A program made the position numbers and the translations under genes. A stretch of DNA of 64,000 nucleotides from Escherichia coli. GTDB taxonomy: Bacteria > Pseudomonadota > Gammaproteobacteria > Enterobacterales > Enterobacteriaceae. Location of the stretch: the NCBI RefSeq assembly GCF_003334335.1, contig NZ_QOWQ01000002.1, one strand, 5' to 3'. Shown here piece after piece: positions 43,688-50,359 of this stretch (positions are counted from its first letter, which is position 1; each line of letters begins with the position of its first letter). Under the pieces are notes generated by a model. That model was given only the letters and a program-made list of their open reading frames with translations, was not told the origin of the DNA and did no database searches.

Positions 43688-44814
<1,127 letters not shown>

Positions 44815-45016
44815 TTAATTCGTAAAACGTGCTACCGATCACATTAAGAAATCAGCGCTTATTTTTTCGCTCCCCGGCATTACGCAATGCGCAGCGAACT
44901 CAGGCATACATCAAGCATAGAGAGGGATTGCAGTTTGCAGCAATCCCTCTTTGCAGACCTTTAATCCGCTGACCATAGGCGCTAACATAGCGCCTCATTT
45001 TTTTGCGGGTGATGAT

Positions 45017-45964
45017 ATGCGTGTGTTACTGGCACCGATGGAGGGAGTGCTTGACTCTCTGGTGCGTGAATTGCTGACCGAAGTTAACGACTACGATCTG
45101 TGCATCACCGAGTTTGTCCGCGTGGTGGATCAACTGCTGCCGGTAAAAGTCTTTCATCGCATTTGCCCTGAGCTACAAAACGCCAGCCGGACACCATCTG
45201 GTACGCTGGTGCGCGTGCAGTTGTTAGGTCAGTTCCCACAATGGCTGGCAGAGAACGCCGCCCGTGCGGTGGAGTTAGGTTCCTGGGGCGTGGATCTCAA
45301 TTGCGGCTGCCCGTCGAAAACGGTTAACGGTAGCGGCGGCGGGGCGACGTTACTCAAAGATCCTGAACTCATCTACCAGGGTGCAAAAGCGATGCGTGAA
45401 GCTGTACCGGCGCATTTGCCCGTCAGCGTGAAAGTGCGTCTGGGCTGGGACAGCGGTGAGAAGAAATTTGAAATCGCCGATGCGGTTCAACAGGCTGGCG
45501 CTACGGAGCTGGTGGTGCATGGGCGGACGAAAGAGCAGGGTTACCGCGCGGAGCATATTGACTGGCAGGCGATTGGCGATATTCGCCAGCGGCTGAATAT
45601 TCCGGTGATTGCCAACGGTGAAATCTGGGACTGGCAGAGCGCGCAACAATGCATGGCGATCAGCGGCTGCGACGCAGTGATGATTGGTCGCGGGGCGCTC
45701 AATATTCCCAACCTGAGCCGGGTGGTAAAATATAACGAACCGCGAATGCCGTGGCCGGAGGTGGTTGCTTTGCTGCAAAAATATACCCGTCTGGAAAAGC
45801 AGGGCGATACCGGGTTATATCACGTTGCGCGGATTAAACAGTGGTTGAGTTATTTGCGTAAAGAATACGATGAAGCAACGGAATTATTTCAGCATGTTCG
45901 GGTGTTGAATAATTCCCCTGATATTGCAAGGGCTATTCAGGCAATTGATATCGAGAAACTCTAA
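45017..45964 (+). CDS. dusC: tRNA-dihydrouridine synthase C DusC
   Basis: ORF 44951..45964; likely start [11 protein letters not shown] (~315 aa); Dus family. Confidence 0.9.
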
Positions 45965-46336
45965 AAAACCATAGTGATGTTTTTTGACAATGTGTTAGCT
46001 CTTTATCAATAGGCCGCACGGTTGTTTGGTGGCGTCAAAATTGCCGAGGCGTTCCCTGAAGGCCGGGGCAGCCCACATGGATGTGGGCTGAGGGCGCGTT
46101 TTACAGGGATGTTACCTCGCGCCCGACCCGGTAGCCGTAAGGGATAAGTCGAGGGCACCGCGCAGCGGCGATTTTGTTCGCCAGAGCCCGGGGGTGCAGG
46201 GGGCGGCGGCGATTGGCCGCCCCCTGCGCGCTCCTTGCGCCAGTGATTATATGAAGCAATGCACATGACAGGAGCGCAACAGGATGAGAGACTGAAATAT
46301 TCTCGTTATTTTCGGACCTGATGACATTAATTAATT

Positions 46337-46420
46337 TTAAAATATCATCTTAAATACGCCAGTCACCACCAGTAGCCCAATCAGGAAAATAATCAATACA
46401 GCCCAGAGTATAATTTTCAT
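46337..46420 (-). CDS. yohP: Small hydrophobic protein YohP (27 aa)
   Basis: ATG at 46418-46420 (minus); hand translation MKIILWAVLIIFLIGLLVVTGVFKMIF; below ORF-track size cutoff. Confidence 0.6.
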   Translation of the reverse strand: MKIILWAVLIIFLIGLLVVTGVFKMIF

Positions 46421-46643
46421 TGGCGTTCCTTTATTTGTGAGTGCTGAATAAGTATAGGAAAAAACGAAGCCCTTTGCCGTTATCCATAAACGATTAAGAT
46501 AAATCGGAAGATATCATTCACTTAGTGTATATTTTTCTGGATATGTCGTTTTATTGCCACTGATGTATTGCCACGCGAAACTAAAAAATATATCGCAACA
46601 CACGGTAATCTCCGCGCACCTTTTCTTACCTGATTATTCCCCC

Positions 46644-48080
46644 ATGAATCGTGATTCCTTTTATCCAGCCATCGCCTGTTTTCCGCTGTTACTGATGCTG
46701 GCCGGGTGTGCGCCTATGCATGAAACCCGCCAGGCGTTAAGCCAGCAAACGCCCGCTGCACAAGTTGACACCGCATTACCCACGGCGCTGAAAAATGGTT
46801 GGCCAGACAGCCAATGGTGGCTGGAGTATCACGATAATCAACTCACTTCCTTAATTAACAATGCACTACAGAACGCACCGGATATGCAGGTGGCTGAACA
46901 GCGCATTCAGCTAGCTGAAGCCCTGGCGAAGGCAGTTGCCACTCAGGATGGTCCGCAGATCGACTTTTCGGCGGATATGGAGCGGCAAAAAATGTCGGCA
47001 GAAGGCTTAATGGGGCCGTTTGCTCTGAACGATCCGGCCGCAGGTACGACCGGCCCGTGGTACACCAACGGTACTTTTGGCTTAACGGCGGGCTGGCATC
47101 TCGATATCTGGGGAAAGAATCGGGCGGAGGTTACTGCCCGCCTGGGTACGGTTAAAGCACGGGCGGCGGAACGCGAGCAAACCCGCCAATTGCTGGCTGG
47201 CAGCGTAGCCCGCCTGTACTGGGAGTGGCAAACCCAGGCGGCGTTAAACACGGTCTTGCAGCAAATAGAAAAAGAGCAGAACACCATTATCGCGACCGAT
47301 CGCCAGCTATATCAGAACGGGATTACTTCTTCAGTTGAAGGTGTGGAAACCGATATTAATGCCAGCAAAACCCGGCAGCAGCTCAACGATGTCGCGGGGA
47401 AAATGAAAATTATTGAGGCACGGTTAAGCGCACTTACAAATAACCAGACAAAGTCATTGAAGCTTAAACCGGTCGCGTTGCCGAAAGTGGCAAGCCAGCT
47501 TCCTGATGAACTGGGGTACTCCTTACTGGCCCGGCGGGCAGATTTGCAGGCGGCGCACTGGTACGTTGAGTCATCGCTAAGCACCATTGATGCGGCAAAA
47601 GCGGCATTTTATCCTGACATCAACCTGATGGCCTTCCTGCAACAGGATGCGTTGCACTTAAGCGATCTGTTCCGTCATTCCGCGCAGCAAATGGGCGTTA
47701 CGGCAGGCCTGACGCTACCCATTTTCGATAGTGGTCGTCTTAACGCCAATCTCGATATCGCAAAAGCCGAAAGCAACTTGTCTATCGCCAGCTACAACAA
47801 AGCGGTGGTTGAAGCGGTGAATGACGTGGCGCGGGCAGCCAGTCAGGTTCAGACACTGGCGGAGAAAAACCAGCATCAGGCGCAAATTGAGCGCGATGCC
47901 TTGCGTGTGGTAGGTCTTGCGCAGGCGCGCTTTAACGCGGGCATCATTGCTGGTTCCCGCGTCAGCGAAGCCAGAATCCCCGCGCTGCGTGAGCGGGCCA
48001 ATGGCCTGTTATTGCAAGGGCAGTGGCTGGATGCCTCCATTCAACTCACTGGTGCGTTGGGCGGGGGTTACAAACGCTGA
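46644..48080 (+). CDS. mdtQ: NodT/OprM-family outer membrane efflux lipoprotein MdtQ, apparently intact here
   Basis: ORF 46554..48080 uninterrupted; likely start MNRDSFYPAIACFPLLLMLAGCAP (lipobox LAGC), ~478 aa. Confidence 0.85.
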   Translation: MNRDSFYPAIACFPLLLMLAGCAPMHETRQALSQQTPAAQVDTALPTALKNGWPDSQWWLEYHDNQLTSLINNALQNAPDMQVAEQRIQLAEALAKAVATQDGPQIDFSADMERQKMSAEGLMGPFALNDPAAGTTGPWYTNGTFGLTAGWHLDIWGKNRAEVTARLGTVKARAAEREQTRQLLAGSVARLYWEWQTQAALNTVLQQIEKEQNTIIATDRQLYQNGITSSVEGVETDINASKTRQQLNDVAGKMKIIEARLSALTNNQTKSLKLKPVALPKVASQLPDELGYSLLARRADLQAAHWYVESSLSTIDAAKAAFYPDINLMAFLQQDALHLSDLFRHSAQQMGVTAGLTLPIFDSGRLNANLDIAKAESNLSIASYNKAVVEAVNDVARAASQVQTLAEKNQHQAQIERDALRVVGLAQARFNAGIIAGSRVSEARIPALRERANGLLLQGQWLDASIQLTGALGGGYKR

Positions 48081-48132
48081 TGATATGCGCCTTCTATACT
48101 TAACGTTTATTCAGCGTTAAGTGGAGAACTCG

Positions 48133-48894
48133 ATGGCACAGGTTGCGATTATTACCGCCTCCGATTCGGGGATCGGCAAAGAGTGCGCGTTATTACTGGC
48201 GCAGCAGGGGTTTGATATTGGTATTACCTGGCACTCAGATGAAGAAGGGGCAAAAGATACCGCGCGTGAGGTAGTTAGCCACGGCGTACGTGCGGAGATC
48301 GTGCAGCTGGATCTCGGCAATCTACCAGAAGGGGCACTGGCGCTGGAGAAACTCATTCAACGGCTGGGGCGCATTGATGTGCTGGTGAATAATGCGGGTG
48401 CAATGACCAAAGCGCCGTTTCTTGATATGGCTTTTGATGAGTGGCGCAAGATTTTTACCGTTGATGTCGATGGTGCATTCTTATGCTCGCAAATTGCGGC
48501 TCGTCAGATGGTGAAACAAGGGCAGGGCGGTCGCATCATCAACATTACGTCGGTACATGAACATACGCCGCTGCCGGATGCCAGCGCCTACACAGCCGCT
48601 AAACATGCGCTCGGTGGGTTAACCAAAGCGATGGCGCTGGAGCTGGTCAGGCATAAGATTTTGGTGAACGCAGTCGCGCCTGGGGCGATCGCCACGCCAA
48701 TGAATGGCATGGATGACAGCGACGTGAAGCCCGACGCGGAGCCTTCGATTCCCTTGCGGCGTTTTGGCGCAACGCATGAGATTGCCAGCCTGGTGGTGTG
48801 GCTTTGTTCGGAGGGCGCAAATTACACCACCGGGCAGTCGTTGATAGTGGATGGCGGCTTTATGTTGGCGAATCCACAGTTCAACCCAGAATAG
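48133..48894 (+). CDS. yohF: SDR-family oxidoreductase YohF
   Basis: Likely start MAQVAIITASDSGIGKE; TGxxxGxG and YxxxK SDR motifs. Confidence 0.88.
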   Translation: MAQVAIITASDSGIGKECALLLAQQGFDIGITWHSDEEGAKDTAREVVSHGVRAEIVQLDLGNLPEGALALEKLIQRLGRIDVLVNNAGAMTKAPFLDMAFDEWRKIFTVDVDGAFLCSQIAARQMVKQGQGGRIINITSVHEHTPLPDASAYTAAKHALGGLTKAMALELVRHKILVNAVAPGAIATPMNGMDDSDVKPDAEPSIPLRRFGATHEIASLVVWLCSEGANYTTGQSLIVDGGFMLANPQFNPE

Positions 48895-48934
48895 CGCAGT
48901 GAGGTGCGTGGATATTTCATTGGGTAATATTTTG

Positions 48935-49015
48935 GTCGGCATGAAAAGACGCACAAGCGTCGTATCAGGCATGGTACTCCGGATGTCGGATGCGGCGCGA
49001 ACGCCTTATCCAGGG
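48935..49015. repeat. REP-like palindromic elements
   Basis: gtcggcatgaaaagacgcacaagcgtcgtatcaggcatg and ccggatgtcggatgcggcgcgaacgccttatccagg. Confidence 0.55.
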
Positions 49016-49023
49016 CAATGGTT

Positions 49024-49602
49024 TTACGCCTGATGATCCGGCTTTTTCTTCCCGCGTCGTTTCAGCCACCAGCGCACGCCCACCACCAGAACCACGACCA
49101 GAATCAACCAGACCCAGTGCTTCAAATGCTGGTCGAGATTGTGCAACCACGGCGCAATCACCTGACCACCAGCGTAACCAATAGTGGTAAAAATCAACGC
49201 CCAGGCAAATGCGCCGAGAATATTCAGCGGCAGAAAGATTTTCGGCGGCAGCTGGCTGGCACCAATCAGCGTCGGGCCAATCACCCGAAAGCCATACATA
49301 AAGCGCGTACCAATGACAAACAGATACGGATGGCGTTGGATAAGTTTCTGCGCCCGCTCAATTTTATCCTGATGTTTCGAGAAACGGCGTAACAGCTTGC
49401 CGCCAAACCGCCGCCCGCACAGATAGAGCACCTGGTCGCCAATCATGCCGCCAAGCGCCACAGAAAGTACCACCAGCGGGAACTTTAATAGCCCCTGATG
49501 CGCCGCAACGCCTCCCAGCAAAGTCACGGTTTCACCTTCCGCCAGGCTACCGATCACCAGCGCGGCATAACCATATTGTGAGATAAGTGTATTGAGATCC
49601 AT
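49024..49602 (-). CDS. yohD: DedA-family inner membrane protein YohD
   Basis: ORF 49024..49638; likely start MDLNTLISQYGYAAL (~192 aa). Confidence 0.88.
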   Translation of the reverse strand: MDLNTLISQYGYAALVIGSLAEGETVTLLGGVAAHQGLLKFPLVVLSVALGGMIGDQVLYLCGRRFGGKLLRRFSKHQDKIERAQKLIQRHPYLFVIGTRFMYGFRVIGPTLIGASQLPPKIFLPLNILGAFAWALIFTTIGYAGGQVIAPWLHNLDQHLKHWVWLILVVVLVVGVRWWLKRRGKKKPDHQA

Positions 49603-49771
49603 AGGCCAGTCTGTCTCCCTTTGGTTGCCAGTAAGCATACACCCTGTGAATCATTCACGCTGAAAAAGGACGTTCATCAGACAGTGAAAATTACATGGGC
49701 GAACAAAAAATAATCACAAGCTGACTTATACTTGAACTGTCAGGTTCATGAACTCACAACAAGGGGGCGGT

Positions 49772-50359
49772 ATGAGCCATGTCTGGGGACTGTTTTCCCA
49801 TCCCGATCGTGAAATGCAGGTGATTAATCGCGAAAACGAAACGATTTCTCACCATTACACCCACCACGTTTTGCTGATGGCGGCGATTCCGGTGATTTGC
49901 GCCTTCATTGGCACTACACAGATTGGCTGGAATTTTGGCGATGGCACTATCCTGAAGTTATCCTGGTTTACCGGACTGGCGCTGGCTGTCTTGTTTTACG
50001 GCGTTATGCTGGCTGGGGTCGCGGTGATGGGGCGGGTCATCTGGTGGATGGCGCGTAATTATCCGCAGCGTCCGTCACTTGCGCACTGCATGGTCTTCGC
50101 GGGCTACGTTGCAACTCCGCTGTTTTTAAGCGGTCTGGTGGCGCTTTATCCACTGGTCTGGTTGTGTGCGCTGGTCGGCACGGTGGCGCTGTTTTACACC
50201 GGCTACCTGCTTTACCTTGGTATTCCGAGCTTCCTGAATATCAACAAAGAGGAAGGCCTTAGCTTCTCTAGTTCGACGCTGGCGATTGGCGTGCTGGTAC
50301 TGGAAGTGCTGCTCGCCCTAACCGTTATACTATGGGGCTACGGTTATCGTTTGTTCTAG
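49772..50359 (+). CDS. yohC: Yip1-family inner membrane protein YohC
   Basis: ORF 49748..50359; likely start MSHVWGLFSHP (~195 aa). Confidence 0.87.
   Translation: MSHVWGLFSHPDREMQVINRENETISHHYTHHVLLMAAIPVICAFIGTTQIGWNFGDGTILKLSWFTGLALAVLFYGVMLAGVAVMGRVIWWMARNYPQRPSLAHCMVFAGYVATPLFLSGLVALYPLVWLCALVGTVALFYTGYLLYLGIPSFLNINKEEGLSFSSSTLAIGVLVLEVLLALTVILWGYGYRLF

What the first reader, a model, noticed from the sequence alone, without database searches (positions are those of the whole stretch)
46644..48080. mdtQ is an intact frame here
The outer-membrane efflux lipoprotein gene mdtQ (yohG) reads as one uninterrupted ~478-aa ORF with a lipoprotein signal (LLMLAGC). My recollection is that K-12 carries it as an interrupted pseudogene. 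Together with the prophage in mlrA and the psuT frameshift this points to a non-K-12 lineage, possibly with a functional extra NodT-family channel.
Basis: partly seen in the sequence, partly recalled or inferred. Interest (0 to 1): 0.3.

Follow-up and report, generated by a model that had tools for sequence, protein, structure and literature searches.

The report
Intact mdtQ gene; K-12 copy frameshifted
This E. coli strain carries the normal, uninterrupted gene for the outer-membrane channel lipoprotein MdtQ; only the laboratory strain K-12 has a one-base deletion that breaks it, so the finding is correct, ordinary and already known.

Summary
Window 46644-48080 (+) is one 478-aa ORF with an LAGC lipobox (Cys22). 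It matches NCBI's MdtQ model end to end (1020.7 bits, cut-off 650) and the NodT-family model, and it has two OEP repeats.

K-12 MG1655 b2139 is an annotated pseudogene of 1436 nt. Its only frame-breaking lesion is the loss of one A from an A5 run (window 46791-46795, codon 49/50), which leaves a 69-aa product.

Among 5,426 complete E. coli genomes, the exact K-12 allele is in 355; all 60 listed are K-12 laboratory strains or likely derivatives. The intact allele is in at least 4,587.

Pairwise dN/dS across the window and eight diverse strains is about 0.04-0.2, so the gene is under purifying selection. A 2025 review already says mdtQ is core-genome conserved despite its pseudogene annotation.

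The window is a very close non-K-12 relative: 9 SNPs and 2 indels over 53 kb, a prophage inside mlrA, and a psuT frameshift.

Two minor extras:
- This copy carries a rare Q94L change at a site invariant in 20 orthologs.
- Relatives at 35-42% identity sit beside MdtNOP-type (FUSC) or MFS pump genes, never RND, which hints at the unknown partner.

Verdict: already known, low interest.

The parts
46644..48080 (+). mdtQ (yohG) coding sequence, 478 aa plus stop, intact
   Evidence: ORF list and sequence. NCBIfam NF008524 MdtQ equivalog 1020.7 bits against cut-off 650, aligned 1-478/478; TIGR01845 NodT 273.4 bits against cut-off 210. The same gene is annotated intact in 8 diverse genomes.
46644..46709 (+). 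Lipoprotein signal peptide ending in lipobox L19-A20-G21-C22 (lipobox codons 46698-46709); Ala23 at +2
   Evidence: Regex match to [LVI][ASTVI][GAS]C at residues 19-22. G21, C22, A23 and P24 are invariant in 21 aligned orthologs. The absence of Asp at +2 implies outer-membrane sorting by the Lol rule (established knowledge, not tested).
46791..46795 (+). A5 homopolymer run; K-12 has A4 here, the frameshift that makes b2139 a pseudogene
   Evidence: Pairwise alignment with NC_000913. The exact A4 64-mer is in 355 genomes and the exact A5 65-mer in 4,587 of 5,426 genomes. All 8 diverse genomes have A5.
46923..46925 (+). Codon 94, CTG (Leu); nearly all other E. coli have CAG (Gln). A rare derived substitution, Q94L (T at 46924)
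   Evidence: K-12 and 8 diverse strains have A at this base. The exact 65-mer with T is in only 2 of 5,426 genomes, on a different haplotype. Q94 is invariant in 20 orthologs. The exact protein is on 11 public contigs.
46848..47441 (+). First OEP repeat (residues 69-266)
   Evidence: Pfam PF02321, i-Evalue 6.8e-17
47520..48062 (+). Second OEP repeat (residues 293-473)
   Evidence: Pfam PF02321, i-Evalue 9.8e-13
48133..48894 (+). yohF, an SDR oxidoreductase 52 nt downstream on the same strand; possibly co-transcribed
   Evidence: Coordinates transferred from TB06053. No terminator-like site was found in the 52-nt gap. The pairing is kept in Salmonella and in a 59%-identical relative but is absent in Citrobacter.
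46337..46420 (-). yohP small membrane protein gene, divergent from mdtQ; the 223-nt AT-rich spacer should hold the mdtQ promoter
   Evidence: Coordinates transferred from TB06053 and K-12 annotation. No experimentally confirmed mdtQ promoter exists, according to PMC11762307.

Best explanation
This is the ordinary ancestral allele of mdtQ (yohG). It is one of the four TolC-like outer-membrane factor genes of E. coli, here in a phylogroup-A strain that is a very close relative of K-12 but not K-12.

Shown here:
- The frame is intact.
- The protein is a full-length member of the MdtQ equivalog and of the NodT family.
- It has a lipoprotein signal and two OEP repeats.
- The K-12 lineage alone lost one A from an A5 run at codon 49/50, which truncates the product to 69 aa.
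- The intact gene is under purifying selection across E. coli.
- It sits at the same dusC...yohD locus, without adjacent pump genes, in Salmonella and Citrobacter.

Inferred from established knowledge of the family:
- After signal peptidase II cleavage and lipidation of Cys22, the protein is sorted to the outer membrane.
- It trimerises into a beta-barrel pore with a long periplasmic alpha-helical tunnel.
- It serves as the exit duct of a tripartite efflux pump.

Inferred more weakly, at about 0.4 confidence: the partner is probably a PET/FUSC-type pump (MdtNO-like, AaeAB-like) or an MFS pump (EmrAB/VceAB-like) joined through an EmrA/AaeA-type adaptor, rather than an RND pump. That is what flanks its closest non-orthologous relatives and its paralog MdtP.
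For: - ORF and lipobox.
- Family scores: NF008524 1020.7 bits against cut-off 650; MdtP model 353 bits; TIGR01845 273 bits against cut-off 210; two OEP repeats.
- K-12 lesion.
- Allele counts: the K-12 allele is in 355 genomes, and all 60 listed are K-12 laboratory strains or likely derivatives. The intact allele is in 4,587 of 5,426.
- Eight diverse strains are all intact, and pairwise dN/dS among them and the window is about 0.04-0.2.
- Orthologs named MdtQ at 94% (E. albertii), about 82% (Salmonella) and about 80% (Citrobacter), in a cluster of 11,156 member sequences.
- Conserved orphan locus in Salmonella and Citrobacter.
- Relatives at 35-42% identity sit in YtcA-adaptor-FUSC-OEP operons (P0127, P0128, P0129), directly after an MdtO-like gene (P0125), or between an MFS gene and an EmrA-like adaptor (P0131). 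None sits with an RND pump.
- The closest solved structure is VceC, 1yc9, E = 5e-40. I recall VceC as the channel of the VceAB MFS pump (own knowledge).
Against: - Nothing here shows expression. The promoter-like scan found 2 sites against 2.5 expected by chance, and there is no obvious Shine-Dalgarno sequence before the ATG (ATTATTCCCCCATG).
- This copy has Q94L at a position invariant in 20 orthologs, so an intact frame does not guarantee wild-type activity.
- No adaptor or inner-membrane pump gene lies nearby, so the partner is guesswork from relatives at only 35-42% identity.
- A minority of E. coli carry other lesions: IS1 insertions in H1 and H34, and in-frame deletions giving 435-aa and 454-aa proteins. 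S. Typhi shows repeated truncations (PMC9241588). The gene is therefore dispensable in some settings.
Confidence: 0.9

Rival explanations
1. The frame is intact but the gene product is impaired or silent in this strain. Either the rare Q94L change at an ortholog-invariant helix position disturbs folding or assembly, or the gene is simply not expressed, making it a cryptic gene.
For: Q94 is invariant in 20 orthologs from three genera, within an invariant block PDMQVAEQRIQLAEA-Q-AKA. OprM also has Gln at the aligned position. L94 is in only 2 of 5,426 complete genomes. There is no clear promoter or Shine-Dalgarno sequence. The promoter has not been experimentally confirmed (PMC11762307).
Against: VceC, the closest solved homolog, has Phe at the aligned position, so a hydrophobic residue is tolerated in the family. 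L94 arose independently on a second haplotype (A29, EC2001) that also keeps the frame open. The exact protein is on 11 public contigs, so the allele has persisted in a lineage. The weak translation signals are shared by every E. coli copy, yet dN/dS is about 0.04-0.2, so the gene must be expressed under some condition.
Confidence: 0.12
2. The window is K-12 itself, and the intact frame is a reversion or a homopolymer sequencing error (A4 read as A5).
For: The window is 99.98% identical to K-12 over positions 1-53300. Homopolymer length errors are common in some sequencing chemistries (general knowledge).
Against: The window also differs from K-12 by 9 SNPs, a psuT 1-bp deletion, a 6-kb patch at 2.3% divergence, and a prophage inserted in mlrA. 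A5 is the state in at least 4,587 genomes, including the nearest non-K-12 relatives such as TB06053, whose mdtQ differs from the window's by one base.
Confidence: 0.01

Closest known systems
MdtQ (YohG) of E. coli, for example WP_001078139.1 (strain TB06053) and the O157:H7 ortholog Q8X659
   Same: Same gene at the same locus (dusC-yohP-mdtQ-yohF-yohD). It differs from the TB06053 allele by 1 nt and 1 aa. Full-length match to the NF008524 equivalog. The exact protein is already deposited as EGE1609936.1 and others.
   Different: Only the Q94L substitution, which is rare in the species.
K-12 mdtQ pseudogene (b2139)
   Same: 99.8% identical DNA in the same genomic context.
   Different: K-12 has A4 instead of A5 at codon 49/50, giving a 69-aa product. 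K-12 also has Gln94 and a synonymous T-to-G change at gene position 1425.
MdtP (YjcP), the outer-membrane factor of the E. coli ytcA-mdtNOP operon
   Same: Closest paralogous family: 353 bits to the MdtP model NF007390, below its cut-off of 597. Both are NodT-type lipoproteins. MdtQ's relatives at 35-42% identity sit in the same YtcA-adaptor-FUSC-OEP layout.
   Different: MdtQ is encoded alone, with no adaptor or permease gene nearby. It is a separate equivalog.
VceC of Vibrio cholerae (PDB 1yc9)
   Same: Best solved-structure match: E = 5e-40 over residues 51-477. Same two-repeat outer-membrane factor architecture.
   Different: The relationship is distant: 141 bits over residues 51-477. vceC lies in an operon with its pump genes vceAB (own knowledge), whereas mdtQ is an orphan.
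TolC, CusC, OprM (canonical outer-membrane factors)
   Different: Under 20% identity to TolC. TolC is not a lipoprotein (established knowledge). The TolC-family model TIGR01844 scores only 53 bits against a cut-off of 225.

Membership tests
MdtQ equivalog (NCBIfam NF008524) | Whole-protein score above the curated cut-off (650 bits) with an end-to-end alignment | tested here: met
   1020.7 bits, residues 1-478 aligned to model positions 1-478 of 478
MdtQ equivalog (NCBIfam NF008524) | Orthologous chromosomal position between dusC/yohP and yohF/yohD | tested here: met
   Same gene order as K-12, TB06053 and Salmonella. Citrobacter keeps the locus but lacks yohF.
NodT-family outer-membrane factor lipoproteins (TIGR01845) | Score above the family cut-off (210 bits) | tested here: met
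   273.4 bits, residues 16-475 aligned to model positions 4-460 of 460
NodT-family outer-membrane factor lipoproteins (TIGR01845) | N-terminal signal peptide with a lipobox and an invariant Cys for lipidation | tested here: met
   LAGC at residues 19-22, with Ala at +2. G21 and C22 are invariant in 21 orthologs. Actual lipidation was not tested.
NodT-family outer-membrane factor lipoproteins (TIGR01845) | Two tandem OEP repeats | tested here: met
   PF02321 at residues 69-266 and 293-473
NodT-family outer-membrane factor lipoproteins (TIGR01845) | Trimeric beta-barrel plus alpha-helical tunnel fold | not tested
Tripartite efflux pump component | Genetic linkage to a periplasmic adaptor and an inner-membrane transporter | tested here: not met
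   No adaptor or transporter gene is adjacent in E. coli, Salmonella or Citrobacter. Only the more distant relatives are operonic with pumps. TolC is also unlinked to its pumps, so this does not exclude function.
Tripartite efflux pump component | Demonstrated export of a substrate or physical docking with an adaptor | not testable with these tools
   The only evidence is the second-hand report of slightly raised puromycin, acriflavine and tetraphenylarsonium susceptibility in null mutants (PMC11762307 citing Sulavik 2001). The primary paper is not held.
K-12-type mdtQ pseudogene | A4 instead of A5 at codon 49/50 (frameshift) | tested here: not met
   The window has A5 at 46791-46795

The most novel reading that the evidence does not exclude
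Nearly all E. coli efflux genetics has been done in K-12, where mdtQ is broken, so a real role for MdtQ may have been missed. MdtQ could be the dedicated outer-membrane exit for PET/FUSC-type or MFS pumps that lack their own channel gene, such as AaeAB, YdhJK or MdtNO-like systems. That is the company its closest relatives keep. The Q94L allele here would then be a natural variant of that channel.
Probability: 0.25. Interest if true: 0.4.

Novelty: already known. Interest (0 to 1): 0.08.

Why it matters
The practical value is as a caution and a marker.

- K-12 is not representative for this gene. Wild E. coli have four intact TolC-like channel genes, not three, so efflux conclusions drawn from K-12 cannot speak for MdtQ.
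- The single-base A-run deletion is a clean K-12 lineage marker. It separates K-12 from relatives that are otherwise 99.98% identical in this region.

Neither point is new: databases annotate both states, and a 2025 review discusses the conservation. The gene-neighbourhood hint about pump partners gives a testable direction for a protein whose function is still unassigned.

Tried and rejected
1. I assumed TB06053's mdtQ was identical to the window's because the search reported 100.0% identity. It differs by the one base that gives Q94L.
2. I supposed the two substitutions between the window and K-12 reflected decay of the K-12 pseudogene. Polarising against 8 strains showed that the nonsynonymous one (Q94L) is derived in the window lineage, and only a synonymous change is on the K-12 side.
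3. I guessed that the 435-aa 'MdtQ' database entries were gene calls downstream of the K-12 frameshift. They are in-frame internal-deletion variants.
4. I considered mdtQ-yohF to be an obligatory functional pair. The pairing is kept in Salmonella and in a 59%-identical relative, but yohF is absent in Citrobacter.
5. I looked for a translational restart that could rescue K-12. The first in-frame starts lie at or after codon 80 and would lack the signal peptide.
6. An Rfam scan of 44500-50000 found nothing.
7. The promoter and terminator scan was not above chance for promoters.
8. The primary paper on yohG mutants (Sulavik 2001, PMC90435) is not held.
9. A29 and EC2001, the only complete genomes with L94, are not the window's source. 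Their mdtQ differs at 14-15 other bases, and their mlrA is intact.

Full report
**Observation.** The sequence shows ATG at 46644 and TGA ending at 48080 on the + strand. This is 1437 nt with no internal stop and encodes 478 aa. The N-terminus MNRDSFYPAIACFPLLLMLAGCAP contains the canonical lipobox L-A-G-C at residues 19-22, followed by Ala. A longer mechanical ORF starts at a TTG at 46554 (508 aa), and some database entries use that start. The family model aligns 1-478 to 1-478 from the ATG, and only that start gives a normal signal peptide.

[quoted passage not shown] It scores 353 bits against the paralogous MdtP model (below that model's cut-off) and 273 bits against the NodT subfamily TIGR01845 (cut-off 210). 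Pfam finds two OEP repeats, at residues 69-266 and 293-473. The closest solved structure by sequence is VceC of Vibrio cholerae (1yc9, E = 5e-40), followed by OprM, CmeC, SilC, OprN, CusC and MtrE. No Rfam family matches the region.

**The K-12 comparison.** NC_000913 annotates mdtQ (b2139) as a pseudogene of 1436 nt, and PGAP labels the K-12 copy 'frameshifted'. Pairwise alignment shows three differences:
- loss of one A from the run AAAAA at window 46791-46795 (codon 49/50);
- T in the window against A in K-12 at 46924 (Leu94 against Gln94);
- a synonymous T in the window against G in K-12 at 48068.

The deletion is the only frame-breaking lesion. It leaves K-12 with a 69-aa product. The first in-frame restart codons downstream lie at or after codon 80 and would lack the signal peptide.

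**How common each state is.** I used 64- and 65-nt allele-specific probes. One indel or mismatch drops identity below 99%, so the >=99% band counts exact matches only.
- The exact K-12 (A4) allele is in 355 of 5,426 complete E. coli genomes. All 60 listed are K-12 laboratory strains or likely derivatives such as MG1655, DH5alpha, C600, J53, DH1 and BW25113.
- The exact A5 allele is in 4,587 genomes. Most of the rest are SNP variants of the flanks.
- Eight genomes chosen across the identity range, including O157:H7 and O104:H4, all carry an intact 1437-nt gene with A5.

Pairwise Nei-Gojobori dN/dS among these genes and the window is about 0.04-0.2 at dS up to 0.11, which indicates purifying selection.

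Orthologs named MdtQ occur in E. albertii (94% identity), Salmonella (about 82%) and Citrobacter (about 80%). The 90%-identity cluster holds 11,156 member sequences.

A minority of strains carry other lesions. These include IS1 insertions (H1 and H34) and in-frame deletions giving 435-aa and 454-aa proteins. Repeated truncations are reported in S. Typhi and Paratyphi A (PMC9241588). The gene is conserved but dispensable in some settings.

**Lineage of the window.**
- Against K-12, the window aligns from 1 to 55745 at 99.894% identity. Only 9 SNPs and 2 one-base indels fall before position 53300.
- One indel is the mdtQ A-run. The other is a 1-bp deletion in the window at about 18846, inside psuT.
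- From 54367 to 60305, divergence jumps to about 2.3%, which looks like a recombined patch.
- Homology ends at 60536, 44 nt into mlrA. It is followed by a 428-aa tyrosine-integrase ORF at 60569-61855 (-) and then excisionase and phage genes. Forty-four genomes, many of them STEC, share at least 80% of this stretch, at up to 99.7% identity.
- The closest complete genomes over 36-58 kb are phylogroup-A-type strains such as TB06053, porcine ETEC isolates and UMNF18.

'Non-K-12 lineage' is therefore correct, but the strain is a very near relative of K-12. That places the K-12 frameshift as a recent, lineage-specific event.

**An unexpected detail.** The window's mdtQ equals the common TB06053 allele (WP_001078139.1) except for A281T, which gives Q94L.
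- K-12 and all eight diverse strains have Gln94.
- Only two complete genomes (A29 and EC2001) have L94. They carry it on a haplotype that differs at 14-15 other sites, so it arose independently there.
- Gln94 is invariant in 20 orthologs from Escherichia, Salmonella and Citrobacter, inside an invariant helix segment.
- OprM has Gln at the aligned position, but VceC has Phe. A hydrophobic side chain is therefore tolerated in the wider family.
- The exact protein is already public on 11 contigs (EGE1609936.1 and others).

The effect of Q94L is unknown. It is a caveat to equating 'intact frame' with 'wild-type protein'.

**How it probably works.** What is shown is limited to family membership, the lipobox and conservation. 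By established knowledge of outer-membrane factors, the precursor would be lipidated at Cys22 and sorted to the outer membrane (no Asp at +2). It would then form a trimeric beta-barrel with a periplasmic helical tunnel that docks with an adaptor protein of an inner-membrane pump.

No adaptor or pump gene lies near mdtQ in E. coli, Salmonella or Citrobacter. To guess the partner, I looked at the neighbourhoods of the nearest representatives from a search of 1.84 billion proteins:
- P0121 (59% identity) has no pump gene on its short contig and is followed by a YohF-like SDR gene, as in the window.
- P0127, P0128 and P0129 (35-42% identity) lie in YtcA, AaeA-like adaptor, FUSC-family permease, OEP operons. 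This is the layout of E. coli ytcA-mdtNOP.
- P0125 lies directly after an MdtO-like gene.
- P0131 lies between an MFS gene and an EmrA-like adaptor.
- None of them lies next to an RND transporter.

Together with the affinity to MdtP and VceC, this makes a PET/FUSC- or MFS-type partner more likely than an RND one. I put this at about 0.4. It is an inference from relatives at 35-42% identity, not a result.

**Expression.** Expression is untested. The promoter scan is at chance level, there is no clear Shine-Dalgarno sequence, and the review notes that the promoter is unconfirmed. No terminator-like site lies in the 52-nt gap before yohF, so co-transcription is possible. Citrobacter lacks yohF, so the pairing is not obligatory.

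**Comparison with what is known.** The 2025 TolC review (PMC11762307) makes these points:
- E. coli has three further outer-membrane factors besides TolC: CusC, MdtP and MdtQ.
- mdtQ is encoded independently.
- Its function is not elucidated.

RefSeq annotates the intact protein routinely. The finding is therefore already known, and this locus is an ordinary member.

**One loose end.** The review cites Sulavik 2001 for drug-susceptibility phenotypes of mdtQ null mutants. If those mutants were made in K-12 (my recollection, unverified), the deleted gene was already frameshifted, and the phenotype would need another explanation. The primary paper is not held.

**Verdict.** Interest is low. The Q94L variant and the neighbourhood-based partner hint are the only additions.

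Noticed in passing
window 46923-46925 (T at 46924): mdtQ carries Q94L. Gln94 is invariant in 20 orthologs from three genera. L94 occurs in only 2 of 5,426 complete E. coli genomes, on a different haplotype. The exact protein is on 11 public draft contigs.
   Followed up: yes
window ~18846 (K-12 2256556, inside psuT b2164): The window has a 1-bp deletion relative to K-12 (GCCGC-GGTGT against GCCGCTGGTGT), which should frameshift the pseudouridine transporter gene psuT. Its frequency in other genomes was not measured.
   Followed up: partly
window 60536-64000: Homology to K-12 ends 44 nt into mlrA. A 428-aa tyrosine integrase ORF (60569-61855, - strand) follows, then excisionase, DUF4222 and DUF551 phage genes. 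This is a prophage integrated in mlrA (yehV). 44 complete genomes, many of them STEC, share at least 80% of 60000-64000, at best 99.7% identity. The remaining mlrA ORF is 215 aa from a TTG, against 243 aa when intact.
   Followed up: partly
window 54367-60305: Divergence from K-12 rises abruptly to about 2.3% (bglX through mlrA), after only 9 SNPs in the preceding 53 kb. This is probably a recombined segment adjacent to the prophage insertion site.
   Followed up: no
window ~46008-46280: GC-rich repeat between dusC (yohI) and yohP/mdtQ. Its position matches the published TRIP1c repeat: 43 bp downstream of the yohI stop and 363 bp upstream of the yohG start (PMC10888264). That paper reports it as a substrate for chromosomal rearrangements.
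   Followed up: partly
database proteins P0014 (435 aa, 43 contigs) and P0004 (454 aa); genomes H1 and H34: Some E. coli lineages carry other mdtQ lesions: in-frame internal deletions of 43 and 24 residues, and IS1 insertions. The gene is therefore lost or damaged sporadically outside K-12 too.
   Followed up: partly
L016 586-2265; L027 5001-7264; L029 5001-7047: A YohF-like SDR gene follows mdtQ about 50-65 nt downstream in E. coli, Salmonella and a 59%-identical metagenomic relative. It is absent in Citrobacter, where mdtQ is followed directly by yohD.
   Followed up: yes
literature (PMC11762307 citing Sulavik 2001): Drug-susceptibility phenotypes are reported for mdtQ null mutants. If these were made in K-12, where the gene is already frameshifted at codon 50, the phenotype is unexplained. 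The primary paper could not be read.
   Followed up: partly
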